From positions 214,837-278,836 of the forward strand of contig CBIMES010000001.1 in NCBI GenBank assembly GCA_966243015.1: a DNA stretch of 64,000 nucleotides. The letters run 5' to 3'. This document shows positions 33,449-51,854 of this stretch, one piece after another. The notes beneath the pieces were generated by a model. It was not told the DNA's origin and made no database searches. It was given only the letters and a program-made list of their open reading frames with translations. Within the stretch, counting starts at the first letter, position 1, and each line of letters begins with the position of its first letter. Position numbers and translations under genes: made by a program. The DNA comes from an uncultured bacterium (GTDB taxonomy: Bacteria > Patescibacteriota > Minisyncoccia > Phycocordibacterales > UBA6065).

Positions 33449-34231
33449 ATGTCATTTCGAACCATCGTATCAACAAAGGCTGACGGCAACCTCTCGTTTG
33501 TCTGGGGCGAGAGGCCGGTGGTCCAGGCCAATCGCGACAGGTTCTTCGCCTCTCGGGGTATCAGGGAGTCTGACGTGGTTTTTATCGACGCCAGGCATAC
33601 GGGAAGTGTTGCCGTGGTCTCAAGGACGGGCGAGGGGAGTGCGGGTGGGCCCGGCCTTGCGTTCGATCCTGTGATAAAAGCCCCTGTCATCGACGCCGAC
33701 TTTCCTGATTATCTCACGGCATGTGACGGTCTACTGACCTTCGATAAAAGCCTCTCTGTGGCTCTTCTGACCGCCGACTGTGTGCCTTTGGTCGTGGTGG
33801 ACGAGGAGACGGGGCTTCACGGCATACTCCACGTCGGCCTCCTCGGTCTTCTGAATGACATAACGGGGACTTTCGCCGATGTGCTGGCGAAGACGAGGGT
33901 TCCCATCAATCGTGTTCGATTCTATGTCGGCCCGCATATCGGTCCCGCCGAGTACGACCTCGGCAAATCAGGCATGTGGCACAGGGTAGGGGCTCAGGCT
34001 ACTGAAAGATGCCCGTGGATTGAGGGTTTCATTGAACGTAAGGAAGGTGGGTCTTTCCTCGACCTTGCCGCAGCAGTGGTGGCGAGGCTCGAGGCGATCG
34101 GCGCCCCTCGCGAGAACGTGACCGTGGACGAGCGAACTACGGCGGCCTTCGATTCAGACTTTTTCTCCCACTACCTCGCCCAGAGGAACGGTGCGGGTAA
34201 CGGCAGGTTCGTGACGGTCGTGGGAGTATAA
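33449..34231 (+). CDS. pgeF: YfiH/PgeF family (DUF152, purine nucleoside phosphorylase / peptidoglycan-editing factor)
   Basis: …LLTADCVPLVVVDEETGLHGILHVGLLGL… matches the conserved Cys/His region of the YfiH family. The internal Met (MSFRTIV) is taken as the start. TACACT lies 6 nt upstream (motif TAYACTGTGCYTATG, shared with the exonuclease gene at 32116). Confidence 0.75.
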   Translation: MSFRTIVSTKADGNLSFVWGERPVVQANRDRFFASRGIRESDVVFIDARHTGSVAVVSRTGEGSAGGPGLAFDPVIKAPVIDADFPDYLTACDGLLTFDKSLSVALLTADCVPLVVVDEETGLHGILHVGLLGLLNDITGTFADVLAKTRVPINRVRFYVGPHIGPAEYDLGKSGMWHRVGAQATERCPWIEGFIERKEGGSFLDLAAAVVARLEAIGAPRENVTVDERTTAAFDSDFFSHYLAQRNGAGNGRFVTVVGV

Positions 34232-34635
34232 AAAGGACCCACCTTCCGCAGTCATCGGCCCGAAGGCTCGTGAAGAGGGAAGGTGGGTCATATGTGCTCA
34301 TACGAGGGCCGTGAATCAACGGAGCGGGCCGTTGTAGCTGCTGTCATCACGACATGCGGCTCCTGCGATATGCGCCTGTCCGCATTGTGCGGATTTTTGA
34401 TCCACGCGGAACCTGGGCCAGAGCCCAGGCCTGCGTGGTGTTAGGAGCTGTCGAATTGGCCGGATTGGACCATTTCAAATATCACTATACTCTCGGGTCT
34501 TTATATTGCAAGGTTGATACGCATCCATTCATTGACTTAATGTATATTTATTGTATTGTAATTTCAGGCGTACATTTCGCCTCATTGAAATAAAGCCCAA
34601 AATAACTGGGCGTAAAACAGAAAGGATACTGTTAG

Positions 34636-35484
34636 ATGAACGCGTCAGAACAACAGGGTGTTCAGATTAAAGTAGGGAAAAAGCCTGTGAGCTGGAAGGA
34701 GTGGGCCGAGCGATGGAATCGCGACGATCTCTCTCATTTCGAGCGTATGGGCCTCTTGCATTACGGGTTCCATATTTTCTCCATGGCGAGTCAGGGCGGT
34801 TCGCTGACAGAGGACATGATCGATCGGCTCTCGCTTTATATCAGGCTCGCAAACACTGCCGGGTGCGAGGTTGTCTCGGACGAGCGAAGGGAGTTGGGGG
34901 ACAAGGCGCTCGCGATCCTTATCTCAAAAGTCGTGGGGGATAGCCAGAGGATCTCTCCCGGGCCAAACCTTTTCGCCATGACAAGCGGAAGCCTTCTGCC
35001 TCTTTTCGTCAGCTTGTTCTGTGACAGGGGTGCCGATGGCAGGTGCAATTGGTCATTCCGTAAGTCTGGAGGCGACGTGATTGATGTCGGCATGAGCAGT
35101 GTCTTCAGCTGGTTTTTCCGGCAGCGTTGCTTCGTGATGGACTCTCCGACAAGACTCGAGCTTGTGCAGTCAAAAGAGCTTGATCGCGTCGTTCAAACTG
35201 CATTCCTTGAGATGCCAGCAGAGTTTTCGATTATGATGAAGGCAATCATCGAAAGCGCTCCTGCGGCATTTCAGGAATCAAACCTGCGAGATCTTGTCAG
35301 GTGGGTGACATGGAACAGCGGCTACGACAAGTATCCACTTCCTGAGCTCCTTCTTGATGACGAGTGCAGGCAAGAGCTCACTGATCGGGTTTCGGAAAAG
35401 CTTTGCGGCCGGACGATTCACGGGCCCATAAATCACTGGCAGGCAATCGTGCTCGTGGGATCAGTCATCCATACGTATTCCTGA
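34636..35484 (+). CDS. hypothetical protein (282 aa), orphan; preceded by ~160 nt of strongly AT-rich DNA
   Basis: Clean ORF with host-like GC3. No domain recognised. A terminator hairpin follows at ~35500-35540. Confidence 0.5.
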   Translation: MNASEQQGVQIKVGKKPVSWKEWAERWNRDDLSHFERMGLLHYGFHIFSMASQGGSLTEDMIDRLSLYIRLANTAGCEVVSDERRELGDKALAILISKVVGDSQRISPGPNLFAMTSGSLLPLFVSLFCDRGADGRCNWSFRKSGGDVIDVGMSSVFSWFFRQRCFVMDSPTRLELVQSKELDRVVQTAFLEMPAEFSIMMKAIIESAPAAFQESNLRDLVRWVTWNSGYDKYPLPELLLDDECRQELTDRVSEKLCGRTIHGPINHWQAIVLVGSVIHTYS

Positions 35485-35727
35485 GGCGATTCGTAACAAG
35501 GCCGCGATGGCAACATCATCGCGGCTTTTTCTTCGGTGGTCTCTTAAAGGGAAGCGCTATTCGCCAGATTATATCAGTGTCGCACAATACACATTTTCGG
35601 TGATTAAGAAAGGGCGTAATAAAGCCTGTATCGTATATGGGCTTTGGGCCGCGACTCTCCTGTCTGTCTGATTAAAATAAAATCCTCGGACATACTCTGT
35701 CCGAGGATTTCAACGGTGTGTGCTTCC

Positions 35728-36222
35728 CTAGGCGCTACCGGATATCTTTTTCCTGACTATGTCCATGCTTTTCTTCATGGTCTCATCGAGAATCTGTCTG
35801 CCAAAGGTCTGCATTTGGATTGCGGCATCGAGAGGTTCCATCTCAGCCATCCTGGTGTCTCTTATCAGCTCATTTGCCAGTGACTCTGGTTTTTCGAGGT
35901 TGAGCGCCAGCTCGAGTTCTCGGTGTAAGCCCTGGTAGACCCTGATTCTCACGGTCTTGCCCCCGACGAGGTTTACGACCTCCTGGGTGCGTGTCTCGAA
36001 GACCTCCTTGGATATTACCGTCACCCGTTCCATCAAATCGATCGGGCCGCACAATTCCTTCTCAGATCGCTCGATGACAGCTTTGGATATTCTTCCTGGA
36101 TAGAGCCCGAATTCCTTCTGTATTGCCTGATAGAGGCAGAATGCGGCCATTTTCTGGGCTGTGGGATTACTGATGTCCAGTGTCTTTTGCATGTTAATGA
36201 ACATGGACGGTTGCGCCGTCAC
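35728..36222 (-). CDS. hypothetical protein (164 aa), convergent with the gene at 34636..35484
   Basis: ORF-track ORF. A terminator hairpin plus T-run follows on the minus strand at ~35680-35720, and an AT-rich region lies upstream (36280-36345). Confidence 0.45.
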   Translation of the reverse strand: MTAQPSMFINMQKTLDISNPTAQKMAAFCLYQAIQKEFGLYPGRISKAVIERSEKELCGPIDLMERVTVISKEVFETRTQEVVNLVGGKTVRIRVYQGLHRELELALNLEKPESLANELIRDTRMAEMEPLDAAIQMQTFGRQILDETMKKSMDIVRKKISGSA

Positions 36223-36369
36223 TTCCTGTAGAGGAAGATTTGATTCAGGACCCTCTCCGGCGTGTGCCGAATATCGAAAGGTCCCCTACTTAATATAATA
36301 CAATAAATATATAAAATGTAAAGTATATAAAAAGCCCCACACACGGGGCTTTTTACTGCGTCGCTTTCT

Positions 36370-36801
36370 TTAGTAGACCCTCGGCGCGCCCGCTGCATCG
36401 GCTTTCTGGATGCACTGAGCGAGCTCCGTGGTCTGGGTCCAGCCGCACTGACCCGTGGACTGTCGCTCACACTTAGCTCCGGTCGACTTATAGCATCCGT
36501 AGGCTTCTCGGTACTCGCAGGTCGACACCATGTCAGGCTGATCGCTGCAGATTTGCCCGCTGCAACCTCCTACGTAGCACCTTGCCTGGGTCACCGGCTT
36601 GGTCGAGGTCGCTGGCGTGACTGGGCTCACGGTCGTGCCCGTGGTCGATGTCGCCGTAGGCACCGTGCTGGTCGCCACGATCACCGTCGACGTGGCGGTC
36701 TGGCTCTGCTCGACCTGACGATTCCTTTCCATGCCGGCGCTCACGGCCGCCACGAGGCCGGCTGCGATGACGACTATGTAGATGAGGTTCTTTCTGATCA
36801 T
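36370..36801 (-). CDS. secreted/membrane-anchored protein with a Thr-rich (mucin-like) linker and a C-terminal 8-Cys domain
   Basis: Internal Met MIRKNLIYIVVIAAGLVAAVSA (signal/anchor). Linker TATSTVIVATSTVPTATSTTGTTVSPVTPATSTKPVTQA. C-terminal CYVGGCSGQIC…CEYREAYGCYKSTGAKCERQSTGQCGW…C. A bidirectional terminator follows at ~36331-36360. Confidence 0.55.
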   Translation of the reverse strand: MIRKNLIYIVVIAAGLVAAVSAGMERNRQVEQSQTATSTVIVATSTVPTATSTTGTTVSPVTPATSTKPVTQARCYVGGCSGQICSDQPDMVSTCEYREAYGCYKSTGAKCERQSTGQCGWTQTTELAQCIQKADAAGAPRVY

Positions 36802-37267: not shown

Positions 37268-38563
37268 CTAGAGGCCTGGCAGGTACGAGAGCGGGTTGAG
37301 ATAGGCCTTCACGTCGGCGATTGGTATGACGACGTCCTTGCATCCCCTGCTGCTGCCGTATTTCTCGACTTTAACTCCCTGGCTCGCCAGGACGGTAAGG
37401 TGAAGGTGCGGTCCGGTCGAGTAGCCTGTGTTGCCGCTGTAGCCGATGCGCTCCCCTGTCTCGACCGTGTCCCCCGCCGACACGCTGATGACGGAGAGGT
37501 GCCCGTAAAGGCTCGAGAGGCCGTTTGGGTGTTTGATGAGGACCCACTTGCCGTACGAGTAGCAGCTCTTGGACAGATCGGTGTTCCCCGTCGCCTGGAC
37601 GGTTCCCGAGAGCACGGACATGACCGGTGTTCCTACGGCAGCGCGGAAGTCGACGCCGTTGTGCGTGCCCGACACGTAGAGGCGCTTTGAGTCGACGGTG
37701 GCACCGAAGTTCTGGGTGATGTAGACGTTCGCGAGCGGCCAGTCGAAGACTCCTGCGCGGGCACTTGGCACCGATGATGGGTCGATGACCAGCTTGAGTT
37801 GGGACTCGTACTCGAAGAGCTCCTTCTCGAAGGCTTCCTTCTCCTTGAGCTTCTGGCTGAGCTGTGCCTGGTACGCGGCGGCGCTGTTCTGGGTCGAGGT
37901 GAGAAGCTTGCTCTGCTCGGTCTTGCTGTACTCGACGGCCTGCTTCTGGCCCGAGAGGTTCTTCTGGAGGGTCACGAGGTTCGCCCTCTCCTTCTCGGCG
38001 CTCGACTTTTGGATGGTGAGGCTCTGGCGCAGGTCGCGGAGGTCGGCGAGGCTTCGGGTGACGCGGGCGTGGACGGAGCGAATGCCGTTCACGTAGTCCC
38101 AGGCCTCGGAGAGGGTTCGCTGATTGAGGAGTTCCTGCACGGCGCTCTGGTCCTCGGCCATTTGCATGTTGCGGATTCCCTGGGCCACGGCCTTGGCCGA
38201 GTTCTCTATCCTGCCCTCGGTTTCATCAATGTCGCCGGCGAGCTCGGTCAAAGTGAGTGAGGTTTTGGTGATCTTCGCCGTGGTGAGGGAGAGGTCCTTT
38301 TCGAGCTTGCTGCGGGTCAGCTCGAGGGATGCCAGGGCGTTCTTGAGGGTCTGGGCCTGTTTCGAGGTCGCGTCGAGGTTGGTGCTGAGGGCCGCGATTT
38401 CCTTTTCGAGGGCCTCTATGCGAGAGTTCGTGTCGGAAATCTGGTCGCGGAGGCTGTCCGCCGACTGCGCGTGCGTGGCTCTGGGCGCAAGTACAAACAT
38501 GCCGACCAGGACGAGGCCGGAGACGAGGGCGGCCAGGCTTGTGGTCTTATGAGTTGAGGGCAT
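37268..38563 (-). CDS. M23 family metallopeptidase (LytM/EnvC-like murein endopeptidase) with an N-terminal coiled-coil region
   Basis: Signal peptide at the internal Met (MPSTHKTTSLAALVSGLVLVGMFVLA). Coiled-coil heptads follow. The C-terminal M23 signature is …HNGVDFRAAVGTPV…GHLS…GNTGYSTGPHLHL…. Overlaps gltX by 17 nt. Confidence 0.8.
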   Translation of the reverse strand: MPSTHKTTSLAALVSGLVLVGMFVLAPRATHAQSADSLRDQISDTNSRIEALEKEIAALSTNLDATSKQAQTLKNALASLELTRSKLEKDLSLTTAKITKTSLTLTELAGDIDETEGRIENSAKAVAQGIRNMQMAEDQSAVQELLNQRTLSEAWDYVNGIRSVHARVTRSLADLRDLRQSLTIQKSSAEKERANLVTLQKNLSGQKQAVEYSKTEQSKLLTSTQNSAAAYQAQLSQKLKEKEAFEKELFEYESQLKLVIDPSSVPSARAGVFDWPLANVYITQNFGATVDSKRLYVSGTHNGVDFRAAVGTPVMSVLSGTVQATGNTDLSKSCYSYGKWVLIKHPNGLSSLYGHLSVISVSAGDTVETGERIGYSGNTGYSTGPHLHLTVLASQGVKVEKYGSSRGCKDVVIPIADVKAYLNPLSYLPGL

Positions 38564-40130
38564 GATCAGCGCATTTCTTGAGCGCCGCGTCGATTCGCCT
38601 GAGTACGGTCTCTTTGCCCAGAATTGCGGAGAGGGTGAACGGATTCGGCGACTTGTCCTTGCCCGACAGTGAGTAGCGAAGGGGCCACAGGACTGCTCCC
38701 CTGCCGTTCGCGTCCGCATAGGGCCAGACGGCGGCCTTGATGCCCTCCTCGGTCCAGTCCCCTGCCCTGACGCCCTCGATGACGCCGCGGACGTGCGTGA
38801 GGTGCTTCACGGTGTTCGAGAGGTCCGGCTCGTCCTTCCATTTGAGCGACAGCGCGTCGTAGTTTGGCTCGCTGAAATAGTAGTCGAGGTCCCGCTCGAG
38901 AATCATCTCGTCGATGTCGGAATACACCTCGATGCGATCGAGGATGACGGGCGCGATTGCCTTTACGGCTTCGTCGGTCACCTTCCAGCCGAGGTCCTTT
39001 GCCCGCTCGTTTGATTCGATGCGGTCCTTGATGGTCGCCTCGAGCTCGGCTCGCGGCAGGAGCTTGATGTGCTCCTTGTTCATCCAGCGGAGCTTCTCCT
39101 CGTTGAAGACGCCTCCCGCCTTGTGGATCTTCGAGATCTCGAACTCCTTCACGAGGCCTTCCTTGGTGAAGACCTCCTGCTCGGTGCCGGGATTCCAGCC
39201 GATGAGGGCGAGGAAGTTAACCATCGCTGACGAGAGGTATCCCTCCTTGCGGTACTCGAGGATATCCTTTGCGCCGTCTCGCTTGCCAAGCTTCTTGGTC
39301 TTGTCGCTGCGGAGAATCGGCGGAAGGGTTACGAGAACAGGAGGCTTGATGCCGAGAGCCTCGTAGAGGGCGAGGAACTTCGGGGTCGACGAGATGAACT
39401 CGTCGGCGCGCATGATGTGCGTCACGCCCATGAGGAGGTCGTCGATGATGTGCGCGAAGTTGTAGGTTGGGTAGCCGTCCTTCTTGATGAGAATGAAGTC
39501 GTCGAGAGCCTCCTCGCCCGCCTCGAGTCGCCCGCGTACCTCGTCCTTCCAGACGGATCGTCGCGGCGTACCTGAGTTAAAGCGGAGCGCCTGCGTACCG
39601 TCCCACTTCCCAAAGGTCTTTGGGCGATGGCGTCGGAAGAGGAAGGGCTTCTTGGCCGCCTCTGCCTGCGCGCGGAAGGCCGCGATCTCTTCGGTGGTGT
39701 ATGGGTCAGGATATGCGAGACCCTTGTCGACGAGCTCCTGCGCGTACTTGCGATAGGTGTCGAGTCGCTCGGACTGAATGCACGAGCCGAAAGGATTCTG
39801 CCTGTCCGGGCCGTAGTCCCAATTAATATCGAGCCATTTGAGTGTCTCCTGAATGTGCTCGATCGAGCCCTCGACCTCTCGCTCGGTATCGGTGTCCTCG
39901 ATGCGGAGGATGAAGGTGCCGCCGTGCTTGCGGGCCCAGAGATGCGCGAAGAGCGCGGTGCGTGCGCTGCCGATATGCATAAAGCCCGTCGGCGACGGCG
40001 CGAAGCGGGTCACCACGCCTGCGCGGTCGGCAGGAATACCCGAAAGGCTTTCGCTCGATGGTACTGACGGTTTTTTGCCGGTTTTGGTCGAAGGTTTCCT
40101 TGAAAAGAAGGCCTTGATGCGGGAAATCAT
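38547..40130 (-). CDS. gltX: glutamate--tRNA ligase with an ~40-aa N-terminal extension
   Basis: …VVTRFAPSPTGFMHIGSARTALF… (HIGH region) and …KKLGKRDGA… (KMSKS-like) with the GluRS catalytic-domain pattern. Confidence 0.9.
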   Translation of the reverse strand: MISRIKAFFSRKPSTKTGKKPSVPSSESLSGIPADRAGVVTRFAPSPTGFMHIGSARTALFAHLWARKHGGTFILRIEDTDTEREVEGSIEHIQETLKWLDINWDYGPDRQNPFGSCIQSERLDTYRKYAQELVDKGLAYPDPYTTEEIAAFRAQAEAAKKPFLFRRHRPKTFGKWDGTQALRFNSGTPRRSVWKDEVRGRLEAGEEALDDFILIKKDGYPTYNFAHIIDDLLMGVTHIMRADEFISSTPKFLALYEALGIKPPVLVTLPPILRSDKTKKLGKRDGAKDILEYRKEGYLSSAMVNFLALIGWNPGTEQEVFTKEGLVKEFEISKIHKAGGVFNEEKLRWMNKEHIKLLPRAELEATIKDRIESNERAKDLGWKVTDEAVKAIAPVILDRIEVYSDIDEMILERDLDYYFSEPNYDALSLKWKDEPDLSNTVKHLTHVRGVIEGVRAGDWTEEGIKAAVWPYADANGRGAVLWPLRYSLSGKDKSPNPFTLSAILGKETVLRRIDAALKKCADHALNS

Positions 40131-40244
40131 GGGTTAAGTATACCCCGACCGCCAGGCCTCTTATTATTGTAATAAGACAATTTTTGTGTCGTAATATACA
40201 GGGATATGCCTCGTTATCCTTCGAGAGTGGGCCTTTGTCAGAAA

Positions 40245-41378
40245 TTAATTTTCAATGATATACGCTTTATCCCGATTCAGAATTTTTTGGCTAATATCTT
40301 TAATCTGGGCCACCGTAACCCCTGAGAGACCCATCATTTCGGCGTATAGGTTCCCAGCCGTTCCTGTTTCCATGTAACTCTCCACAACCCAGTCCTGACG
40401 TGACATCGCTCCCGCCCAGTCGCTTTTCATTTCCGACAGCTTCTCCTTTTTGTATTTTTTGAGTTTATTACCGAGGGCCCTGTCTTCAATCACGGTTCTA
40501 ATTGTTGAGAAAAAAGTCTCGGCGAGAGCCTTCGGAAGCGCTTTGTCGGAGTGAATGCCGAACCACATGAATCCGTATCTCCTTTCAAGGCGGAGTTCCT
40601 GATACGGGCCGTGCATACCCTTTTCGGCAAATGTACTCGACAGTCTTCTTGATATCTCGCCGTGGATAAAATTAAGCGAGAACGCCGCCTCCCAGCCTTT
40701 TTCTATTCCGGGCACAGGAAACGCGATGCAGAACACATTGCCTCCCTGAGTCTTGGGTATGCGAATGTTTTTCTTTGCCGAGAACCTAACTTTTTCAAAT
40801 TCTCGTGTCGGAATGTGTCTTGGCGTCGATGTTGACCGCGAATGTCTCTCGCCAACGAATATGAGGGGCTTGGACGACAGCATCCTCTCTATCGTTCTTA
40901 TTGTCGACGCGAGATCGATTGAGTTCATGCTGTCGAGTTGGCCGAGTCTCCTGCGGGCCAAGCGCTTCGGCTGCTTGATGAGCTTGTTCTTAATGTATTC
41001 AGAAAACAACCCCGAAGCAGAGCCGTACTGGTTTTCGAGCTCTGTCCTTATGAGACCCTTCTCTTTTTTGACGTCCGCCTTCCCCGTCTGAAGAGAAATG
41101 TCGCGCAGTGTGTTTATTACTCCTTTTTTGGCGAGCTTTTCGTATTCAGGACGACTGAGTTTCATGTGTATGACGGTGCTCGTATCATCTATGTATCCTA
41201 ATATCTCTTTGGTCTGGAGGTTCTTCTGGATTGCCGCGCAGATACAGTGTTCCGCGAGGTGTCCGATTCCAAACTCCTTATCGCCGTCGTCCACGGTTCC
41301 ATAGGAAAAGGCGACGCTGACAATCACCTCGTCTTTCTTTGTGGGGATTTGTATGTAAATGGTTTTGTCTTCTACCAT
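40245..41378 (-). CDS. M16 (insulinase/pitrilysin)-like zinc peptidase candidate (HxxEH) on an AT-richer islet
   Basis: …FGIGHLAEHCICAAI… contains the inverzincin HxxEH motif near the N-terminus, as in M16. 377 aa. Codon usage is visibly more AT-rich than the neighbours. Confidence 0.55.
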   Translation of the reverse strand: MVEDKTIYIQIPTKKDEVIVSVAFSYGTVDDGDKEFGIGHLAEHCICAAIQKNLQTKEILGYIDDTSTVIHMKLSRPEYEKLAKKGVINTLRDISLQTGKADVKKEKGLIRTELENQYGSASGLFSEYIKNKLIKQPKRLARRRLGQLDSMNSIDLASTIRTIERMLSSKPLIFVGERHSRSTSTPRHIPTREFEKVRFSAKKNIRIPKTQGGNVFCIAFPVPGIEKGWEAAFSLNFIHGEISRRLSSTFAEKGMHGPYQELRLERRYGFMWFGIHSDKALPKALAETFFSTIRTVIEDRALGNKLKKYKKEKLSEMKSDWAGAMSRQDWVVESYMETGTAGNLYAEMMGLSGVTVAQIKDISQKILNRDKAYIIEN

Positions 41379-41442
41379 GCGTGACCTTATGGTACTTCCG
41401 GGTAGTAAAAATGGCCAATGGTATTTTGGCCATAGTGTGCGC

Positions 41443-41628
41443 TTAGCCTCGTCTTCCGAATATTGATCGGAGGCCTTTGGTTACGCGCGAATGTTCTTCT
41501 GATTTAGAGTGACCAACGTTTCGTTGTCGGCCGCCTCCACTGTTTGAACTGGGCGACGAGGAATCCCTTCGGCCTTTTGACCGTTGGAAACTGGCACCCT
41601 TGTCGGCGTTAACGTGTTTTTTAGGCAA
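41443..41628 (-). CDS. small basic Ser/Gly-rich protein (61 aa) with TTG start and a perfect Shine-Dalgarno
   Basis: The minus strand reads AAAGGAGGTGAtaagactTTG… and a downstream hairpin plus T-run terminator lies at ~41401-41440. The composition is low-complexity and KGG/stress-protein-like. Tentative. Confidence 0.45.
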   Translation of the reverse strand: MPKKHVNADKGASFQRSKGRRDSSSPSSNSGGGRQRNVGHSKSEEHSRVTKGLRSIFGRRG

Positions 41629-41732
41629 GTCTTATCACCTCCTTTCTGGGTTTGAGGTTATCAAAGGCGAGCTAAAATTCTCATAAAGAATTATTCAAGA
41701 AAAGTAAAAGCCCCACTCACTGGGGCTTCTGC

Positions 41733-42860
41733 TTACTTTGTATGGCTGAGTGCAATCCTGATGATCTCCCTCGCGATAGTGTCCGCCGCGTCCGTTCGGG
41801 CGAACGAGTTCGCACCCTTCTTCATGGCCTCGGCGATGCCCGGTTTCTCGATGATGCGGTCGATATCCGCCGCGAGCACGTGCGGGGTAAGGTTGAACTC
41901 CTCGATGACCGAGCAGGCGCCCGACGACGCGTAGGCGAAGGCGTTCGACTTCTGGTCGTGGCTGATGGCCTCGGGAATCGGGATGATGATGGACGGGACC
42001 TGCCAGAGGGCGATCTCGAAGATCGTCGAGCCGGCGCGGGAGATGATGACGCTCGCCTGCCCTGCCGCCATGCGGAGGGCGAGGTTGTTGAGGTACGCGA
42101 ACGGCCTGTAGCGGTTGGCGAACATGCTGTCGCCCAGGATGACCTTCGAGGTGTTGGTCATCTCCTCAATATTGTCCTTGCCCGTCTGGTGAATGACGTA
42201 GTACTTCTTCACGAGCTCGGGCAGAATGTCGATGATGGCGTCGTTTACCTTCCTTGACCCCTGCGATCCGCCGAGAATAAGAATCACCGGCACGGAGTCC
42301 TCGAGCCTGAGGAACTCGCGGGCGCCCTCTTTCAGGGTTTCGCGGATCTCCTTGCGAATCGGGTTGCCGGTGAAAGCCACCTTGTCTGCTGGGAAATACT
42401 TTGCGGCCTCGCGGTACGAGAGGGCGATCTTCTCGGCGAACTTCGCGGACCAGAGGCTCACGCGGCCCGGATGCGAGTCCGACTCGTGGATGATGACGGG
42501 GATGCGAAGGAGTCGCGCCGCCCAGAGAACCGGGAAGCTGACGTACCCGCCCTTGCTGAAGACCACGTCAGGGTAGATGCTCCAGACGTCCATAACGGCC
42601 GTGACGAGGCCAAGGGCCATCTTAAACATATCCACCACGTTCATGAGCGAGAAGTAGCGGCGAATCTTGCCTGCGTGGCTCTTCTGGTAGATGATGCCGT
42701 TCTCGAAGAGGGCTCGCTCGTCGTACTTTGACGGCGCCATGTAGTACATCGTTGCGTCGAGGAGCTTCTCCTCCTTGGCGATCCTGCGGATCGACTCGGC
42801 CACGGCGATGAGGGGATAGAAATGGCCGCCGGTTCCGCCTCCTGTGAGTAGTATCTTCAT
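41733..42860 (-). CDS. murG: UDP-N-acetylglucosamine--N-acetylmuramyl-(pentapeptide) pyrophosphoryl-undecaprenol N-acetylglucosamine transferase MurG
   Basis: MKILLTGGGTGGHFYPLIAVAESI… (the GT28 N-terminal G-loop) and C-terminal GT28 domain conservation. A terminator follows at ~41700-41732. Confidence 0.9.
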   Translation of the reverse strand: MKILLTGGGTGGHFYPLIAVAESIRRIAKEEKLLDATMYYMAPSKYDERALFENGIIYQKSHAGKIRRYFSLMNVVDMFKMALGLVTAVMDVWSIYPDVVFSKGGYVSFPVLWAARLLRIPVIIHESDSHPGRVSLWSAKFAEKIALSYREAAKYFPADKVAFTGNPIRKEIRETLKEGAREFLRLEDSVPVILILGGSQGSRKVNDAIIDILPELVKKYYVIHQTGKDNIEEMTNTSKVILGDSMFANRYRPFAYLNNLALRMAAGQASVIISRAGSTIFEIALWQVPSIIIPIPEAISHDQKSNAFAYASSGACSVIEEFNLTPHVLAADIDRIIEKPGIAEAMKKGANSFARTDAADTIAREIIRIALSHTK

Positions 42861-42881: not shown

Positions 42882-43985
42882 TTATTTTAGCATATACCGG
42901 GATATGTTGAGCAGGATGCCCGCCTGGCCTAGGGCGAACAAGAGCGCCGTTCCTCCCTGGCTCACGAACGGCAGCGGGATGCCCGCGATCGGCAGGATGC
43001 CAATCATCGAGCCGATGTTGATGAATGCCTGGCAGATCATGAAGGTGGCGACGCCGACGATCACGTACGCGCCGAACGGGTGGCTCGACCTATTGGCGAC
43101 GACGAACGAGCGCAGGGTGAAGGAGACGAAGAGGGCGATGAGGGCGGTGCTGCCGATGAGGCCGAACTCTTCTGCTGCCACGGCGAATATCGAGTCGCCG
43201 ACAGGCTCGGGCAGATAGTTGAACTTCTGTATGCTCTGGCCGAATCCCCTGCCGTCGATGCCTCCCGACCCCACGGCGATGAGCGACTGCTGGATTTGGT
43301 ATCCCGAGCCAAGGCCGTTCTGGGCAGGATTAAGGAAGGTGTTCACGCGCGAGGCGATGTAGTCCGACGTCATGTACACCGCGCCAAGGCCAAGGGCGCC
43401 TGTGACGCCGAGGGCGATGACCCAGCGCCACTGCCCTCCCGCGGCAAGGTACATGGCCGTCAGGGCCACGATGATGACGGCAAGGGTGTCGTGGTCGGGC
43501 TGCGCCAGAAGGAGCATCGAGACGATGGCGATGATGATCAGAAGCGGCAGGAATCCCTCCTTGAATGTAGAGACCCTTTCCCGCACCGAGGAAAGCCATG
43601 CGGCAAAATAGAGGACCGCGCCGATTTTGAGCATCTCGGACACCTGGAACGTGAATCCGCCGAGGTCTATCCAGCGCGTCGCGCCTCCGTGCGAGAAGCC
43701 AATACCGAGCCACGGTATGAGGATGAGGATGTTGAGGATGATGGCGAGCAGGAATATCCAGAATGACATCTTTCGCCAGTAGAGGAAGTGAATCCTCGAC
43801 GTTGCGTAAAGGGCGACGAGGCCGGGCACGAGGCCGAAGAAGATCTGCCTGAAGGCGATCGAGCCAAACTGTACCGAGTCGCGCGACAGGAGGCCGAGCG
43901 ACGCCGAGAGAAAGATGAGGAAGCCCGCGCCCGCGAGGAGGAGGATCGATATAAGGAGCTGTCTGTCCATGCGGGCCTTTTTCAT
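42882..43985 (-). CDS. ftsW: SEDS-family peptidoglycan polymerase FtsW/RodA
   Basis: 10 TM helices with conserved SEDS segments (…GATRWIDLGGFTFQVSEMLKIGAVLYFAAWLS…, …PDHDTLAVII…). The internal Met start is supported by an extended -10 (TGaTATGAT) 7 nt upstream on the minus strand. Confidence 0.85.
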   Translation of the reverse strand: MKKARMDRQLLISILLLAGAGFLIFLSASLGLLSRDSVQFGSIAFRQIFFGLVPGLVALYATSRIHFLYWRKMSFWIFLLAIILNILILIPWLGIGFSHGGATRWIDLGGFTFQVSEMLKIGAVLYFAAWLSSVRERVSTFKEGFLPLLIIIAIVSMLLLAQPDHDTLAVIIVALTAMYLAAGGQWRWVIALGVTGALGLGAVYMTSDYIASRVNTFLNPAQNGLGSGYQIQQSLIAVGSGGIDGRGFGQSIQKFNYLPEPVGDSIFAVAAEEFGLIGSTALIALFVSFTLRSFVVANRSSHPFGAYVIVGVATFMICQAFINIGSMIGILPIAGIPLPFVSQGGTALLFALGQAGILLNISRYMLK

Positions 43986-44041
43986 GAGCATCATCATATC
44001 AGTGAGAGGCGAAATCAAAAAGTGTCTGCTAGAATATTTAC

Positions 44042-44440
44042 ATGAAAATCATCAATAACATTCTTCGAGTTTTGCTCGCTCTGCTTCTCGTAAGCCCTAT
44101 TCTCGGCACTCTCGGCGTCTTCCCCGCCCCGACCGCCGACATGTACAACACAGCGGCTGGCTGGAACTTTATCCAGGCGCTCTACGCGGTACCGTACATC
44201 ATGTACGTCATGGCCGCGGTCTTTGCCGTCGCCATCGGCCTTATCGTTACTAACCGTATGGCCCTCGCCGCGCTCCTCATTCTCCCTATTACGGTGAATA
44301 TCATTGGCTTCCACGCCTTCCTCGACGGCGGCCTTCTTACCGTGGGCGCCATCATGGCGAACGCCCTCGCCCTCATCAACATTTACTTCCTCTGGAGGAG
44401 CCGTGGCGTGTACCGCATTCTCCTCGCCAGGAACGGCTAA
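44042..44440 (+). CDS. hypothetical membrane protein (132 aa, 4 TM helices)
   Basis: ORF-track ORF. An extended -10 (TGcTAGAAT) sits 6 nt upstream of the ATG, and a terminator follows at ~44455-44490. Confidence 0.55.
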   Translation: MKIINNILRVLLALLLVSPILGTLGVFPAPTADMYNTAAGWNFIQALYAVPYIMYVMAAVFAVAIGLIVTNRMALAALLILPITVNIIGFHAFLDGGLLTVGAIMANALALINIYFLWRSRGVYRILLARNG

Positions 44441-48472: not shown

Positions 48473-49237
48473 TTATTCGAGAGTTGGGTAATACACTCTC
48501 AACGAGTCAATTTGACCGACCCAGTACTCGCTTGGCAACGTCTGCCACGAGCGGGCAAAAGCCGTTTGGACGCCACCCATGTCGATAATGCTGGCGCTCG
48601 GCAGCGAGACCTCCTTGTCGAGCTTACCGTCGATGTAGAACTTGTAGCCGACGCCTCCCTCGAGCAGAAACGCGATGTGAGTCCACTTGTCGAGGGGAAT
48701 GGTCGCGTTCGACTGCGGCCAGTGGTTGCCGCCTGCGTTTATCATGAGCTGAAGCCTGCGCGATGGGTTGACCCCGAAGTAGAGAAAGCCCGGAAAGCCG
48801 TTCGCGATCATGCTATAGCCGCCGCTCACATACTGGGTCGGCTTGACCCATGTCATGAGCAGGATTTTACCGTTTGCCCCGCCGACCAGATCAATGCTCG
48901 ACCTCAGGTCTGGAACTGATACATAGCTATTCCCGTCGAAAGAGAGGGCTCCGCCGCTCGGGCCTGCCGTCCACTGGGGCGTTCCCGAGAAGGATCCGTG
49001 TCTTCCAGCGCCGGAAATATCCTGGGGAGCGCTACCGGATCCGTCGTTGAGCTCCCATATTCCGAGGGCGTTGTTGGCGTAGGCGCTGTGCATGCTTGCC
49101 GCAAAACGAATTCCCGAGGATATGCGCGCCTTCTCCCGAGCAGCGTTCACGCTCGACAGCACGACGCTCGAGAGGAGGCCGATGATCGATATGACCACGA
49201 GGAGCTCGATGAGGGTGAATCCGCGCGACGCTTTCAT
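48473..49237 (-). CDS. type IV pilin-like protein with a LamG/ConA-like domain (tandem with the gene at 47656..48462)
   Basis: N-terminus MKASRGFTLIELLVVISIIGLLSSVVLSSVN. The C-terminal region (…KILLMTWVKPTQYVSGG…KWTHIAFLLEGGVGYKFYIDGKLD…) is LamG-like. An extended -10 (TGGTATAAT) sits 8 nt upstream of the ATG. Confidence 0.8.
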   Translation of the reverse strand: MKASRGFTLIELLVVISIIGLLSSVVLSSVNAAREKARISSGIRFAASMHSAYANNALGIWELNDGSGSAPQDISGAGRHGSFSGTPQWTAGPSGGALSFDGNSYVSVPDLRSSIDLVGGANGKILLMTWVKPTQYVSGGYSMIANGFPGFLYFGVNPSRRLQLMINAGGNHWPQSNATIPLDKWTHIAFLLEGGVGYKFYIDGKLDKEVSLPSASIIDMGGVQTAFARSWQTLPSEYWVGQIDSLRVYYPTLE

Positions 49238-49491: not shown

Positions 49492-50787
49492 TTACGGATT
49501 AAGCCTCTTCACGTCCCTCGGGAGGTAGGTTGCCTCGCGGACGTTCGGGAGGTCGAGCATCTTCATGATGAGACGTCCCGGTCCGATGCCCGCTCCGCCG
49601 TGCGGAGGGCAGCCGTACCTGAAGAAGTTGATGTAGTCCTTGAGCGACTCGAGCGACATGCCCTTGTCGAGGGCCTGCTTCTCGAGGATCTCGACGCGAT
49701 GCTCTCGCTGGGCGAGGGTCGTGACCTCGATGCCTCGGTAGATGAGGTCTGCTCGCTTCGAGCGGTCGTTGTCGTTCTCGTGGCGCATGTGGTAGAAGGC
49801 GCTCTTCGACTTGTGGTAGTCGGTGATGAATACGAAATCGTGATTGTGCTTCTCCTTCACGTACTCCGAGATGGCTCGCTCCTCCTCGGGCGAGAGGTCA
49901 TGATCCTCTCCCGATGCAATTCCCCTCTCGGCGAGGATCTTCTTTGCCTCGACAATCGGGATGCGTGGGAACGGCTGTGCCGGAACCTCGATGTTGAGGG
50001 TCGGGAACGCCTCCTTTACGGCCGCGAAGCCTGCGACGATCATGCCCTCCTCGGCATCCATGATGTCGTGGTGAGACTCGATGTAGCTGATTTCGAAGTC
50101 CCAGCCGGTGAACTCGGTGAGGTGTCGGGTGGTGTATGACTCCTCGGCTCGGAAGACGGGGCCGACCATGAAGGCCTTCTCGAAGCCCGACGCCATGGCC
50201 ATCTGCTTGTAGAACTGTGGCGACTGCGCGAGGTACGCCTTGCGGTCGAAGTAGTCTACGGCGAACACCTCGGCGCCCGTCTCTGACGGTGTCGACATGA
50301 ACGACGGCGAGTAGATCTGCATGTAGCCGTTCTTGTACCAGTAGTCGCGGAAGCCCTTCTCGAGCGCGGTCCAGACCTTGAAGATCTGCGCCTTCTCGGG
50401 CTTGCGGAGGTCGATCCAGCGGAAGTCGAAGCGGGTCGGCGCCTCGGTCTCCTCGCCGCCCTTGAGGGTGACGACAGGGATGGCGAGCTCGGGAGCCGCC
50501 TTCGAGAGAACCTCGATGCCCGTGATGTCCATCTCGGCTCCGCCCGGCGCCTGCGCAGCCGCCTTGACGGTTCCGGTTACCTCGACGACTGACTCGGTCG
50601 AGAGACCCTTCACGGTCTCGAAGGTCGGGCTGTCCTTCATGACGACGATTTGCACGAGGCCCTCGATGTCGCGGAGGACGAGGAAGGCGATTTTTGACTG
50701 AACGCGGAGCGCGTGCACGAAGCCGCGAACCATGACGGTCTCGCCGACGTGATCCTTGACCTTGCTGGTGTGTACGAATGCTTTCAT
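49492..50787 (-). CDS. aspS: aspartate--tRNA ligase, archaeal/eukaryotic type (class IIb; possibly non-discriminating Asp/Asn-RS)
   Basis: N-terminal OB fold, class II motifs (…FRAEESYTTRHLTEF…, …GGAGIGPGRLIM…). The internal Met (MKAF…) is taken as the start because the upstream 36 codons of the ORF-track ORF are the T-box terminator region. Confidence 0.85.
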   Translation of the reverse strand: MKAFVHTSKVKDHVGETVMVRGFVHALRVQSKIAFLVLRDIEGLVQIVVMKDSPTFETVKGLSTESVVEVTGTVKAAAQAPGGAEMDITGIEVLSKAAPELAIPVVTLKGGEETEAPTRFDFRWIDLRKPEKAQIFKVWTALEKGFRDYWYKNGYMQIYSPSFMSTPSETGAEVFAVDYFDRKAYLAQSPQFYKQMAMASGFEKAFMVGPVFRAEESYTTRHLTEFTGWDFEISYIESHHDIMDAEEGMIVAGFAAVKEAFPTLNIEVPAQPFPRIPIVEAKKILAERGIASGEDHDLSPEEERAISEYVKEKHNHDFVFITDYHKSKSAFYHMRHENDNDRSKRADLIYRGIEVTTLAQREHRVEILEKQALDKGMSLESLKDYINFFRYGCPPHGGAGIGPGRLIMKMLDLPNVREATYLPRDVKRLNP

Positions 50788-50789
50788 TG

Positions 50790-51180
50790 TGTTTGTAAAA
50801 ACGTTAATAAGGTTAATCGATGCGGGGTTGCCTGTATAAAACAAAAGCGCCCCTTCGAATACATCGCGTGGATACATTCGCAGGGGCGATTTCATCGCGG
50901 TGCCACCCTGTGTTCAGGCTGGCCTCAGGTTGCCCTGGGGCCAGCCTCTTTTGGTTTAGTCGTAATCGGACGACATCCGGGGGATTCTACTTGCCTCGGG
51001 CTGATTTGAGGCCCACGGAGGCTTTCCTTCCCCTACCTCGCCGGTGTCAGCCGGGTCAGTGGTATGCGAGTACTTTAGCTGATTTTCAGGGTTTGGGCAA
51101 ACTTTCTATCCTGACCAGCATAAGGGTTCTGATAGCTTGGCCTTCGGGCTCCAAGGCCCCGTTTTCGCGGGGTTTCGCTT
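50790..51180 (-). promoter_or_regulatory. T-box riboswitch leader regulating aspS
   Basis: The minus strand carries the T-box consensus AGGGUGGCACCGCG (~50896-50909). It is immediately followed by an 18-bp terminator helix (CGCCCCUGCGAAUGUAUC/GAUGUAUUCGAAGGGGCG) plus CUUUUGUUUU, about 50 nt before the aspS ATG. A ~270-nt structured region with a UUCG-capped helix lies upstream. Confidence 0.7.
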
Positions 51181-51185
51181 TTTCC

Positions 51186-51854
51186 CTAGCGTATGTATGC
51201 CATTGATGCGGCGACACCATCGATGTTTCGGTAGACCTTATCGGAAGGCTGATTCTTCATTTCCCAGGTCTCAGATACTATAAATCCCGGAAACTTTTTT
51301 GATTTAGTTTGTGCAAGAGCGGCAATCGTCCTGGCGCACGACTCCTCGGCGTAGGCGGGCTTGGTCACGCTCGCCATAATCCTGCGAATGAGGCCATATC
51401 CCGACGTGTCTACTGAGCATATTTCAATTATGGCGTACGGGACCCCATGTGCGCTTATTTTTTCCTCGCAGTTTATAACTGTAATGTCGTAATCTCCTTT
51501 ATTGAGAAATACTTCGGTTGAACACATTCCTTCGATTCTTTGTCCCGTGTACGATATTGGTCCAGAGGGACCCTCGTAGCTTTTTCCCTCGGTCTCTTTG
51601 TTTGTCGCCTCTAGGCGTGGTGAGTTAAGACCGGTTAACGCCCAATGCTCGTAGGGCATCTTTTCGTTGTCTGAAGGACGAACACTTTCAATGACAGCCT
51701 CTGGGCTGGGCACAGCAAAGGCTAGGCCGAGGATTTCTGAGCGGAAAAGGCCATCCGTGTCGAGGTTGTTTTTGACGGACCAATCTTTTGATAGGAAAAG
51801 ATATCCTGAAAAGAAGAGTGCGCCGAGAGTTGTAATTAAGATTATTTTTTTCAT
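51186..51854 (-). CDS. hypothetical membrane-anchored protein (222 aa), AT-richer than surroundings
   Basis: Internal Met MKKIILITTLGALFFSGYLF (N-terminal TM helix). No domain recognised. Confidence 0.5.
   Translation of the reverse strand: MKKIILITTLGALFFSGYLFLSKDWSVKNNLDTDGLFRSEILGLAFAVPSPEAVIESVRPSDNEKMPYEHWALTGLNSPRLEATNKETEGKSYEGPSGPISYTGQRIEGMCSTEVFLNKGDYDITVINCEEKISAHGVPYAIIEICSVDTSGYGLIRRIMASVTKPAYAEESCARTIAALAQTKSKKFPGFIVSETWEMKNQPSDKVYRNIDGVAASMAYIR

What the first reader, a model, noticed from the sequence alone, without database searches (positions are those of the whole stretch)
40140..41740. AT-richer islet carrying an M16-like HxxEH peptidase candidate and a tiny basic protein with a perfect Shine-Dalgarno and TTG start
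The segment between gltX and murG is compositionally distinct. The 377-aa protein has GIGHLAEHCI near its N-terminus, the inverted zinc-binding motif of insulinase-family peptidases, but is shorter than typical two-domain M16 enzymes. Next to it is a 61-aa Lys/Arg/Ser/Gly-rich ORF with an AAAGGAGGTGA Shine-Dalgarno 8 nt before a TTG start and its own hairpin terminator. The ORF is KGG/stress-protein-like in composition. Both features are unusual in a genome that otherwise favours leaderless ATG starts, which hints at foreign origin or high constitutive expression.
Basis: partly seen in the sequence, partly recalled or inferred. Interest (0 to 1): 0.5.

Follow-up and report, generated by a model that had tools for sequence, protein, structure and literature searches.

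The report
Small basic peptide plus M16 peptidase
Between murG and gltX sits a low-GC two-gene cassette: an unannotated, strongly translated 61-residue basic protein followed by a divergent but catalytically complete M16B zinc peptidase. The same peptide motif lies next to a zinc peptidase gene in many other bacteria, including at the toxic tips of RHS toxins, which suggests an undescribed peptide/peptidase system.

Summary
Window 40140-41740 is the lowest-GC 1.6 kb of the 64 kb (0.475 vs 0.571, z = -3.9).

**The 377-aa ORF is a real M16B peptidase.**
- HxxEH, E106 and the zinc-ligand E113 are invariant in its family.
- The AF2 model (pLDDT 90) matches M16B structures over both domains.
- Pfam misses this sequence on its own.

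**The 61-aa ORF is a real gene.**
- Against a homologue, pN is 0.15 while pS is saturated.
- It is 79% identical where the peptidase is 39%.
- It has the only full Shine-Dalgarno plus TTG start in the window, and its own terminator.
- It is not KGG-like. It belongs to an unnamed family with the core RERNVGH-x5-EEHSR.

**The two genes are linked across genomes.**
- 23 of 35 informative loci have a zinc metallopeptidase gene next to the motif: M16 in 18, a small HExxH enzyme in 5.
- In Firmicutes and elsewhere the motif lies in the C-terminal toxin region of RHS or Tox-WTIP proteins, and the peptidase occupies the immunity-gene slot.

**Best reading:** the peptidase acts on the small protein, most likely to neutralise it. 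Maturation of the peptide is the main rival. Nothing has been tested biochemically, and no paper in the searched library describes the pair.

The parts
40131..41732 (.). Low-GC islet between gltX and murG that holds the two-gene cassette
   Evidence: GC is 0.475 vs 0.571 for the window, z = -3.9, the lowest 1.6-kb window. GC3 is 0.58 vs 0.80-0.86 in the neighbouring genes.
41706..41730 (-). Intrinsic terminator hairpin of murG, which isolates the small gene from upstream transcription
   Evidence: 10-bp stem with 5 GC pairs followed by a T-run; sequence read.
41635..41645 (-). Shine-Dalgarno AAAGGAGGTGA, 6 nt upstream of the TTG start
   Evidence: Only one other of 55 ORFs in the window has a full GGAGG. 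The same SD precedes homologues in L002, L025, L036 and L058.
41443..41628 (-). 61-aa basic (pI 11.9, net charge +11), disordered protein of an unnamed family; TTG start; absent from public gene calls for this genome
   Evidence: Against L002: pN 0.15, pS 0.85, and 79% identity where the neighbouring peptidase is 39-40%. The family has at least 210 clusters. AF2 gives pLDDT 65 with almost no secondary structure. No gene is called here in L005-L010. No Pfam, NCBIfam, PHROGs or PADLOC hit.
41473..41532 (-). Conserved core of the small protein (residues 33-52: GRQRNVGHSKSEEHSRVTKG; family consensus GRERNVGHxKxEEHSRVxKG)
   Evidence: R34, R36, N37, H40 and H46 are invariant; G33, E45, S47, R48 and K51 are nearly invariant. 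The same core lies inside RHS and Tox-WTIP proteins.
41406..41433 (-). Intrinsic terminator after the small ORF (ATGGCCAA-loop-TTGGCCAT plus TTTTT)
   Evidence: An equivalent hairpin plus T-run follows the small ORF in 9 of 12 distinct stand-alone loci.
40245..41378 (-). 377-aa divergent M16B-type zinc peptidase with both domains; no N-terminal signal sequence seen by eye (not checked with a predictor)
   Evidence: AF2 pLDDT 90.1, pTM 0.88. Foldseek top hit is 3hdi_A at E 3e-18, followed by other M16B/MPP-type chains. The narrow family profile hits MPP-beta at 1.6e-7 and 3hdi at 5.9e-7 over the full length. The broader profile hits 3hdi at 1.8e-23.
41247..41261 (-). HLAEH, the inverted zinc-binding motif (H40, E43, H44)
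   Evidence: Invariant in 34 family members. E43 and H44 are present in all 16 partner peptidases aligned, and H40 in the 15 that are complete there; L059 is cut by its contig end.
41040..41063 (-). EKGLIRTE (E106...E113), the M16 E-x6-E segment; E113 is the inferred third zinc ligand
   Evidence: E113 is invariant and E106 nearly invariant in the family. The segment aligns with EKERKVVFEE of 3hdi.

Best explanation
The islet is a two-gene accessory cassette.

- **Gene 1** encodes a 61-aa, highly basic, intrinsically disordered protein. It is made in quantity: it has a perfect Shine-Dalgarno, its own terminator, and is monocistronic.
- **Gene 2** encodes a divergent M16B zinc peptidase with a complete catalytic set. 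M16B enzymes work as clamshell dimers that enclose and cut unfolded peptides of up to roughly 70 residues.

I propose that the small protein, through its conserved core RERNVGH-x5-EEHSR, is the dedicated substrate of this peptidase. The peptidase most likely removes or neutralises it.

The pair is the minimal, stand-alone form of a wider module. In that module the same motif forms part of the C-terminal toxic end of RHS and Tox-WTIP proteins, and a zinc peptidase sits where the immunity gene normally sits. That peptidase is either an M16 or a small HExxH enzyme.

**Shown:**
- both genes are real;
- the M16B fold and catalytic residues;
- the gene linkage across phyla;
- the replacement of one peptidase type by another;
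- the immunity-slot position.

**Inferred:**
- that the peptidase cleaves the peptide;
- that the outcome is neutralisation;
- that the peptide is harmful or otherwise bioactive.
For: **The peptidase**
- HxxEH, E106 and E113 are invariant in the family.
- The AF2 model (pLDDT 90) matches M16B structures. Family profiles match PDB M16B chains.

**The peptide**
- pN 0.15 vs pS 0.85; 79% identity vs 39% for the peptidase.
- Predicted disordered; 47-73 aa across the family.

**Linkage**
- Of 35 distinct, informative motif loci, 18 have an M16 gene and 5 have an HExxH gene within 400 nt.
- This holds in Paceibacterota, Saccharibacteria and a UGA-recoded lineage, with unrelated flanking genes.
- It also holds in Clostridia and Eubacterium MAGs and in human-gut metagenome contigs.

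**Displacement by a different enzyme**
- L043, L061, L048, L060 and L062 carry a 153-201 aa HE[IL]GH protein instead of an M16.
- Two of these (L048, L062) have a weak Lit / Peptidase_U49-like active site.

**Immunity slot**
- In L048 the HExxH gene lies 12 nt after an RHS gene whose tip carries the motif. It is followed by an orphan RHS tip with its own small downstream gene.
- In L045, L050, L053 and L023, M16 genes lie 8-nt-overlapping to 13 nt after RHS genes.
- L053 is an orphan RHS tip plus an M16 gene.

**Shared architecture**
- SD, then small ORF, then terminator, then peptidase is seen across the stand-alone loci.
Against: - No biochemical or expression data exist.
- Twelve informative loci carry the small gene with no peptidase nearby. 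These are Proteobacteria-like or of unknown origin, often next to integrase, TraG, TrbC or resolvase genes. The peptide is therefore not obligatorily paired and may not be toxic on its own.
- In this window the peptide has no membrane-spanning or delivery part, unlike the RHS and Tox-WTIP versions.
- A strong SD on a 'toxin', with a terminator before its 'immunity' gene, is the reverse of the usual toxin-immunity dosage.
- The peptide is far more conserved than a mere protease substrate needs to be. That points to another conserved target I could not identify.
- In three Firmicute partners (L030, L031, L045) the zinc-ligand Glu is Gln. Catalysis may therefore not be universal.
Confidence: 0.55

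Rival explanations
1. **Maturation rather than neutralisation.** The small protein is a pro-peptide. The M16B enzyme cuts it at a defined site to release an active fragment, as M16B enzymes do for some ribosomal peptide natural products and as mitochondrial processing peptidase does for basic presequences.
For: - The arrangement is abundant precursor gene, terminator, then lower-expressed enzyme. From my own knowledge this resembles operons in which a peptide precursor gene precedes its processing enzymes.
- The peptide has two conserved blocks separated by a variable Ser/Gly/Pro linker.
- M16B proteases are reported as leader peptidases for lanthipeptides (PMC8960859, found).
- The catalytic residues are strictly kept in all Patescibacteria partners.
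Against: - No modifying enzyme, exporter or other maturation gene lies in the cassette; the flanks are murG and gltX.
- There is no Cys or other obvious modification site.
- RHS tips are released by the RHS protein's own autoproteolysis (established knowledge), so a downstream processing protease is not needed there. No other immunity candidate lies between the RHS gene and the peptidase gene.
Confidence: 0.2
2. **The small protein is a ligand, not a substrate.** It acts as a regulator, plug or pseudo-substrate of zinc peptidases. Its conserved His/Glu core binds in or near the active site. It is kept next to the enzyme it controls, or the enzyme acts as a non-catalytic trap.
For: - The invariant H40, E45 and H46 could bind metal.
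- Two unrelated zinc peptidase families are partners.
- The zinc-ligand Glu is Gln in three Firmicute M16 partners, which suggests binding without cutting.
Against: - Patescibacteria partners keep every catalytic residue.
- The motif occurs at the tips of delivered toxins, where regulating the producer's own peptidase makes little sense.
- No structure of the complex could be computed with these tools.
Confidence: 0.12
3. **No functional link in this genome.** The small protein is a general stress, hydrophilin or nucleic-acid-binding protein. The M16B enzyme is a housekeeping peptidase. They are neighbours through shared descent or co-transfer.
For: - The small gene has its own terminator, and the peptidase probably has its own promoter.
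- The small gene occurs without a peptidase in 12 loci.
- Its composition is hydrophilic and basic.
Against: - Adjacency recurs in at least 18 distinct loci with unrelated flanking genes and in several phyla.
- It survives replacement of M16 by an unrelated HExxH enzyme.
- No KGG match appears even at E <= 10.
Confidence: 0.1
4. **The 61-aa ORF is not a gene.** It is a chance ORF or an RNA element.
For: It is not called in the public annotation of this genome, and it starts with TTG.
Against: - pN 0.15 vs pS 0.85.
- More than 200 protein clusters share the core.
- Homologues start with ATG behind the same SD.
- No Rfam family matches.
Confidence: 0.01

Closest known systems
M16B peptidases (e.g. 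Bacillus halodurans BH2405, PDB 3hdi; Thermus TTHA1264/1265; Sphingomonas Sph2681/2682; mitochondrial processing peptidase beta)
   Same: - The HxxEH plus E-x6-E zinc site.
- Two alpha/beta domains in one chain of about 400 aa.
- Full-length profile and fold matches.
- A single gene, which implies a homodimer as in 3hdi (my own knowledge).
- MPP recognises basic, unstructured peptides.
   Different: - About 15% sequence identity to solved structures, and below Pfam detection on its own.
- About 10% shorter.
- Tightly paired with one specific small-protein gene, which to my knowledge has not been described for these enzymes.
Polymorphic toxin / immunity cassettes (RHS C-terminal tips; Tox-WTIP pore-forming toxins; Zhang et al. 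2012, PMC3482391)
   Same: - The peptide's core motif is found within RHS C-terminal tips and just N-terminal to Tox-WTIP or other hydrophobic tails.
- The peptidase gene lies immediately downstream, where immunity genes lie.
- Orphan tip-plus-partner units exist.
- The cassette has low GC and variable genomic context.
   Different: - In the window the peptide stands alone, with no delivery domain and no hydrophobic tail.
- The 2012 paper lists no immunity protein for Tox-WTIP and never mentions M16 or insulinase. I found no description of a zincin acting as an immunity protein there.
- Immunity proteins usually bind rather than cut.
M16B leader peptidases of ribosomal peptide pathways (PqqF/G for PqqA; class III lanthipeptide M16B proteases, PMC8960859)
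   Same: A small precursor-like gene lies next to, or works with, an M16B enzyme. The precursor is expressed more strongly than the enzyme.
   Different: There are no modifying enzymes or exporter, and the peptide family is different.
Resistance or immunity by proteolysis (nisin resistance protein NSR; MccF for microcin C; Abi/CAAX-type bacteriocin immunity proteases; from my own knowledge)
   Same: Self-protection by cutting a toxic peptide.
   Different: The protease families are unrelated, and none is reported with this peptide motif.
Lit phage-exclusion protease (Peptidase U49)
   Same: The small HEIGH partner proteins of L048 and L062 weakly resemble Lit around the HExxH site (NCBIfam E 6e-5 to 1e-4; Pfam U49 E 0.04).
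   Different: The scores are far below the family thresholds, and the similarity covers only about 40 residues. It concerns relatives' partner genes, not the window's gene.

Membership tests
Peptidase family M16 (inverzincins), subfamily M16B | HxxEH zinc-binding/catalytic motif near the N-terminus | tested here: met
   H40-L-A-E43-H44. Invariant in 34 family members. E43 and H44 are present in all 16 partner peptidases, and H40 in the 15 that are complete there.
Peptidase family M16 (inverzincins), subfamily M16B | Third zinc ligand Glu about 70 residues downstream, in an E-x6-E segment | tested here: met
   E106 and E113 (EKGLIRTE) align with EKERKVVFEE of 3hdi. E113 is invariant in the family.
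Peptidase family M16 (inverzincins), subfamily M16B | Two homologous alpha/beta domains (M16 plus M16_C) in one chain of about 400 aa | tested here: met
   AF2 pLDDT 90.1. Foldseek full-length matches to 3hdi, 3eoq, 7v4y and 3ami, with TM about 0.7. The profile covers residues 16-369 of the query and 23-392 of 3hdi.
Peptidase family M16 (inverzincins), subfamily M16B | Score above the Pfam gathering threshold for Peptidase_M16 / M16_C | tested here: not met
   The window protein alone gives no M16 hit at E <= 1. 20 of 34 aligned relatives hit Peptidase_M16 and 15 of 34 hit M16_C. Membership therefore rests on profile and fold evidence.
Peptidase family M16 (inverzincins), subfamily M16B | Dimeric clamshell with an enclosed chamber; peptidase activity | not testable with these tools
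   Only a monomer model could be made, and no assay is possible.
KGG stress-induced repeat proteins (Pfam PF10685) | Match to the KGG repeat profile | tested here: not met
   None of 28 small-protein family members hits KGG at E <= 10. The window protein gives no Pfam or NCBIfam hit.
Polymorphic toxin / immunity cassette | Toxin module at the C-terminus of a delivery protein (RHS etc.), or homologous to one | tested here: inconclusive
   The window protein stands alone. Its core is homologous to a segment inside RHS tips and Tox-WTIP proteins. Whether that segment is itself the toxic part is unknown.
Polymorphic toxin / immunity cassette | Partner gene immediately downstream, forming a swappable unit with the toxin tip | tested here: met
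   M16 or HExxH genes start from an 8-nt overlap to 25 nt after RHS/Tox-WTIP genes. Orphan tip-plus-partner units are present. In the window the gap is 64 nt and contains a terminator.
Polymorphic toxin / immunity cassette | Toxicity of the module and protection by the partner | not testable with these tools
   Needs expression experiments.
Ribosomally synthesised, post-translationally modified peptide (RiPP) cluster | Modifying enzyme(s) and usually an exporter encoded alongside the precursor | tested here: not met
   The only neighbours are murG and gltX. Related loci share no other gene.

The most novel reading that the evidence does not exclude
A previously unrecognised conflict module that spans several phyla. 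A roughly 40-residue disordered basic motif (KRKGxxxRQ...RERNVGH-x5-EEHSR-xPKG) is the conserved working part of a set of RHS-delivered and Tox-WTIP-type toxins. Producers protect themselves with dedicated zinc peptidases that destroy or trap the motif: M16B clamshells or small Lit-like HExxH enzymes. This would be proteolytic immunity. Patescibacteria, including this genome, would carry the minimal stand-alone version as a highly expressed effector or growth-control peptide together with its peptidase.
Probability: 0.3. Interest if true: 0.8.

Novelty: new variant of a known kind. Interest (0 to 1): 0.62.

Why it matters
- **An M16B enzyme with a named candidate substrate.** M16B peptidases are widespread in bacteria, yet few have a known substrate. 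This one has a candidate encoded right next to it, so its function can be tested with one synthetic peptide.
- **A possible immunity protein for Tox-WTIP and a new immunity type.** If the peptidase proves to be a proteolytic immunity protein, Tox-WTIP-type toxins would gain an immunity partner; the founding survey lists none for them. A clamshell peptidase would also be added to the known kinds of immunity protein.
- **A function for a cassette in a reduced genome.** For Patescibacteria, whose small genomes hold few accessory genes, it would define a conserved, highly expressed small protein that current gene callers miss.

Tried and rejected
- **Single-sequence family scans.** The 377-aa protein gave no M16 hit in Pfam, and only a weak sub-threshold YfmH_fam match (an M16-type model, E 0.0018) in NCBIfam. 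A single-sequence PDB search was also uninformative. Family profiles and a structure model were needed.
- **KGG / stress-protein idea.** Rejected by Pfam scans of 28 members at E <= 10.
- **Phage and defence libraries.** PHROGs and PADLOC gave nothing for either protein.
- **RNA element.** No Rfam family matches 39900-42000; the one hit is noise at 17 bits against a gathering score of 59.
- **Insertion scars.** No flanking direct or inverted repeats, and the only tRNA in the window is 5.6 kb away.
- **Annotated plasmid and phage records.** tblastn with a proteobacterial family member found nothing. The low-complexity filter may have contributed.
- **Locus search with the peptidase alignment.** The search for related loci with the peptidase alignment or the full small-protein alignment failed because no stretch was conserved enough. 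A trimmed small-protein alignment worked.
- **Literature.** Searches for M16 with Patescibacteria, M16 with Rhs and immunity, and the motif strings themselves found nothing relevant.
- **Acidic peptidase idea.** I asked whether the peptidase is overall acidic, to match the basic peptide. It is not: pI 9.5 here and mixed in partners. Whole-protein charge says little about the chamber, so this is uninformative.
- **HExxH partner identity.** A PDB sequence search with the L061 HExxH protein gave only noise.
Full report
**1. What is in the sequence**

All genes in 38.5-44 kb lie on the - strand. In order they are: ftsW (42882-44018), murG (41733-42860), a terminator hairpin (41706-41730), the Shine-Dalgarno AAAGGAGGTGA (41635-41645), and 6 nt later a TTG that opens a 61-codon ORF (41443-41628). 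A second hairpin with a T-run follows (41406-41433), then a 377-codon ORF (40245-41378), then gltX (38547-40130).

GC of 40140-41740 is 0.475. The window mean is 0.571 and the sd of 1.6-kb windows is 0.025. This is the lowest such window in the 64 kb, z = -3.9. GC3 of the 377-codon gene is 0.58, against 0.80-0.86 in gltX, murG and ftsW; the window mean is 0.71, sd 0.10. Two other patches (about 34.2-36.6 kb and 50.5-53.4 kb) fall to about 0.49-0.51, so the dip is extreme but not unique.

Only this ORF and one other of 55 long ORFs have a full GGAGG upstream. Many genes instead have a TATAAT/TATACT-like box 6-10 nt before the ATG.

**2. The 377-aa protein is an M16B peptidase**

On its own the sequence gives no M16 hit in Pfam. 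NCBIfam gives only a weak match to YfmH, an M16-type protein. A word-indexed search found a single other cluster, at 39% identity, from a Candidatus Paceibacterota MAG.

An exhaustive profile search found 54 relatives. Proteins of 367-399 aa grade into ordinary 400-440 aa M16 proteins. Of 34 aligned members, 20 hit Pfam Peptidase_M16 and 15 hit M16_C. G37, H40, E43, H44 and E113 are invariant and E106 is nearly so. This is the HxxEH motif plus the E-x6-E segment that supplies the third zinc ligand.

A profile restricted to the 16 closest relatives still hits MPP-beta (1.6e-7) and the Bacillus halodurans M16B enzyme 3hdi over the full length (5.9e-7). The broader profile gives 1.8e-23 against 3hdi.

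The AlphaFold2 model is confident (pLDDT 90.1, pTM 0.88). Its best structural matches are M16B enzymes and MPP/core proteins; 3hdi_A scores E 3e-18 with TM about 0.72.

The protein is a complete two-domain M16B unit, about 10% shorter than usual. I saw no signal peptide by eye and did not run a predictor.

**3. The 61-aa ORF is a real, unannotated gene of an unnamed family**

A homologue lies directly upstream of the peptidase homologue in the Paceibacterota MAG. It has an ATG start behind the same SD and is followed by a similar terminator. The two small proteins are 79% identical, whereas the peptidases are 39-40% identical. Non-synonymous divergence is 0.15 while synonymous sites are saturated at 0.85. 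For the peptidase, pN is 0.43.

The family has at least 210 clusters at E <= 10. Most members are 47-73 aa. R34, R36, N37, H40 and H46 are invariant, and the consensus core is GGRERNVGHxKxEEHSRVxKG.

The protein has pI 11.9 and net charge +11. It is predicted to be disordered (pLDDT 65). It matches nothing in Pfam, NCBIfam, PHROGs or PADLOC, and in particular not KGG. No Rfam family matches the region.

Public gene calls on contigs carrying this locus skip it. The exact protein is also absent from the 5.8-billion-protein collection.

**4. The two genes are a conserved pair**

I collected 62 loci and reduced them to 35 distinct loci with enough flanking sequence to judge (tallies).

- **M16 partner, 18 loci.** An M16-type gene lies within 400 nt of the motif-bearing gene.
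  - In 16 of these it is directly downstream on the same strand. In L024 and L059 the two genes are convergent.
  - Named sources include Paceibacterota, Ca. Paceibacter, Saccharibacteria and 'Patescibacteria group' MAGs.
  - One source is a lineage whose peptidase gene reads through only if UGA is a sense codon (L022).
- **Flanks differ.** They are murG/gltX here, ABC transporter/purD in L002 and L011, and other genes in L013. The pair therefore moves as a unit.
- **Partners are very divergent.** HMM E-values against my family profile range from 1e-111 to undetectable. E43 and H44 are present in all 16 partners aligned, and H40 in the 15 that are complete at that position. Several were confirmed by Pfam above threshold.
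- **Shared layout.** SD, small ORF, intrinsic terminator, often a TATAAT box, then the peptidase gene. This recurs in 9 of 12 distinct stand-alone loci.
- **GC.** The pair has lower GC than its flanks in 13 of 15 loci.

**5. Link to polymorphic toxins**

In a Eubacterium MAG (L023) the same core lies inside the region after the RHS core end (YNDPVNYYDYDGY). A hydrophobic tail follows it. The next gene overlaps by 8 nt and is a 407-aa M16+M16_C protein.

In human-gut contigs (L045, L049, L050, L052, L053, L055), RHS proteins of at least 1,100 aa carry the core about 60 residues from their C-terminus. A 428-430 aa M16 gene follows each. L053 is an orphan RHS tip plus an M16 gene.

In Clostridia MAGs, proteins of 100-126 aa place the core just N-terminal to a Tox-WTIP domain or another hydrophobic tail. 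An M16+M16_C gene again lies immediately downstream (L030, L031). Tox-WTIP is listed in the founding survey as a two-helix pore-forming toxin with no known immunity protein. That paper never mentions M16.

**6. Replacement by a different peptidase**

Five loci lack an M16 gene. The next gene instead encodes a 153-201 aa protein with HE[IL]GH and a downstream Glu.

- L043 and L061 are stand-alone small proteins. Their partners are 54% identical to each other.
- L048, L060 and L062 are RHS or RHS-like proteins whose tips end in the motif (Pfam confirmed RHS repeats in L048). The L048 and L060 partners are 42% identical, and those of L048 and L062 show a weak Lit / Peptidase_U49-like active site.
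- In L048 the HExxH gene sits between the main RHS gene and an orphan RHS tip that has its own small downstream gene. This is exactly where an immunity gene is expected.

Two unrelated zinc peptidase families occupy the same position next to the same motif. This is the strongest argument that the partner's role is to act proteolytically on, or at least bind, the motif.

**7. What does not fit**

- Twelve informative loci carry the small gene without any peptidase nearby. They are alphaproteobacterial or of unknown origin. Several have a short tyrosine-recombinase gene directly upstream, or TraG, TrbC, resolvase, PAAR/RHS or TPR genes around them.
- The window's peptide lacks a hydrophobic tail and a delivery domain.
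- Its expression signals suggest much more peptide than peptidase.
- Its conservation across phyla exceeds what a protease recognition site needs. It probably binds some conserved cellular component that I could not identify.
- In three Firmicute M16 partners the zinc-ligand Glu is Gln. Those partners may trap rather than cut.

**8. Interpretation**

| Claim | My confidence |
|---|---|
| The 377-aa protein is an M16B peptidase with an intact active site | about 0.95 |
| The small ORF is a real gene | about 0.99 |
| The two genes are functionally coupled | about 0.85 |
| The peptidase takes the small protein as substrate or ligand | about 0.7 |
| The purpose is neutralisation (immunity-like) rather than maturation | about 0.45 vs 0.2 |

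The last judgement rests on the immunity-slot evidence. It is tempered by the expression architecture and by the peptidase-less loci.

Foreign origin of the islet is plausible, given its composition, variable context and the mobile-element company kept by relatives. It is unproven. I found no scars, no adjacent tRNA and no integrase at its borders.

**9. Novelty**

The peptidase is a divergent new member of a known family. None of the four family libraries has a model for the small-protein family. I found nothing in the searchable literature on its pairing with zinc peptidases or its presence in RHS/Tox-WTIP tips. Subscription-only papers are not covered by that search. I rate this a new variant of a known kind (a toxin/immunity-like or peptide/peptidase cassette) that is directly testable.

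Noticed in passing
L048 3133-3633; L060 547-1047; L062 3109-3570; L043 3231-3833; L061 4257-4853: Two small families of HE[IL]GH proteins (153-201 aa) have no Pfam model. Two members (L048, L062) show only a weak Lit / Peptidase_U49-like active site. All five replace the M16 gene downstream of the motif-bearing gene. In L048 and L062 the gene sits directly after an RHS gene.
   Followed up: partly
L030 4388-5674; L031 4350-5603; L045 3329-4615: In these three Firmicute M16 partners, the residue aligned with the third zinc ligand (E113 of the window protein) is Gln, while HxxEH is kept. They may bind without cutting.
   Followed up: partly
window, upstream of many ORFs, e.g. gltX start 40130, 48473-49237, 56668-60396, 44042-44440: Most genes lack a Shine-Dalgarno and have a TATAAT/TATACT-like box 6-10 nt before the ATG. 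This suggests leaderless or very short-leader mRNAs as the norm in this genome.
   Followed up: partly
window about 34200-36600 and 50500-53400: Two further low-GC patches (about 0.49-0.51). The second holds low-GC3 genes at 51186-51983 (GC3 0.48) and 51925-53064 (0.56). They may be other accessory or acquired segments.
   Followed up: no
window 37268-38719 (-): A coiled-coil M23 peptidase ORF. From its first ATG it overlaps the 3' end of gltX by 173 nt. The public annotation uses a later start (431 aa). The true start is uncertain.
   Followed up: no
L022 3773-4684: The peptidase gene next to the small ORF is broken by TGA codons in table 11. It reads through as one HLLEH protein of about 300 aa if UGA is a sense codon (table 25 or 4). 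The contig (33% GC) probably comes from a UGA-recoded lineage such as Gracilibacteria or Absconditabacteria.
   Followed up: partly
L014 3352-4189; L018; L034 2326-3186; L026 and L028 1181-4180; L019 915-2954: Peptidase-less copies of the small gene sit directly after a short (193-201 aa) tyrosine-recombinase gene in L014, L018 and L034. In L026 and L028 they are the last gene of a conserved set that begins with a 609-612 aa TPR protein. In L019 a 680-aa TPR protein lies downstream instead. TraG, TrbC, resolvase or PAAR/RHS genes lie nearby.
   Followed up: partly
L050 4801-6006: Downstream of the RHS-M16 pair are three paralogous small proteins with hydrophobic, signal-peptide-like N-termini and a shared RWESEYPRMYID... 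block. Their function is unknown. They could be alternative immunity candidates in that locus.
   Followed up: no
window 41443-41628 and L005-L010: The small ORF is missing from the public gene calls on contigs carrying this locus, and its exact protein is absent from the protein collection. The likely reasons are its TTG start and short length. Homologues with ATG starts are called.
   Followed up: yes
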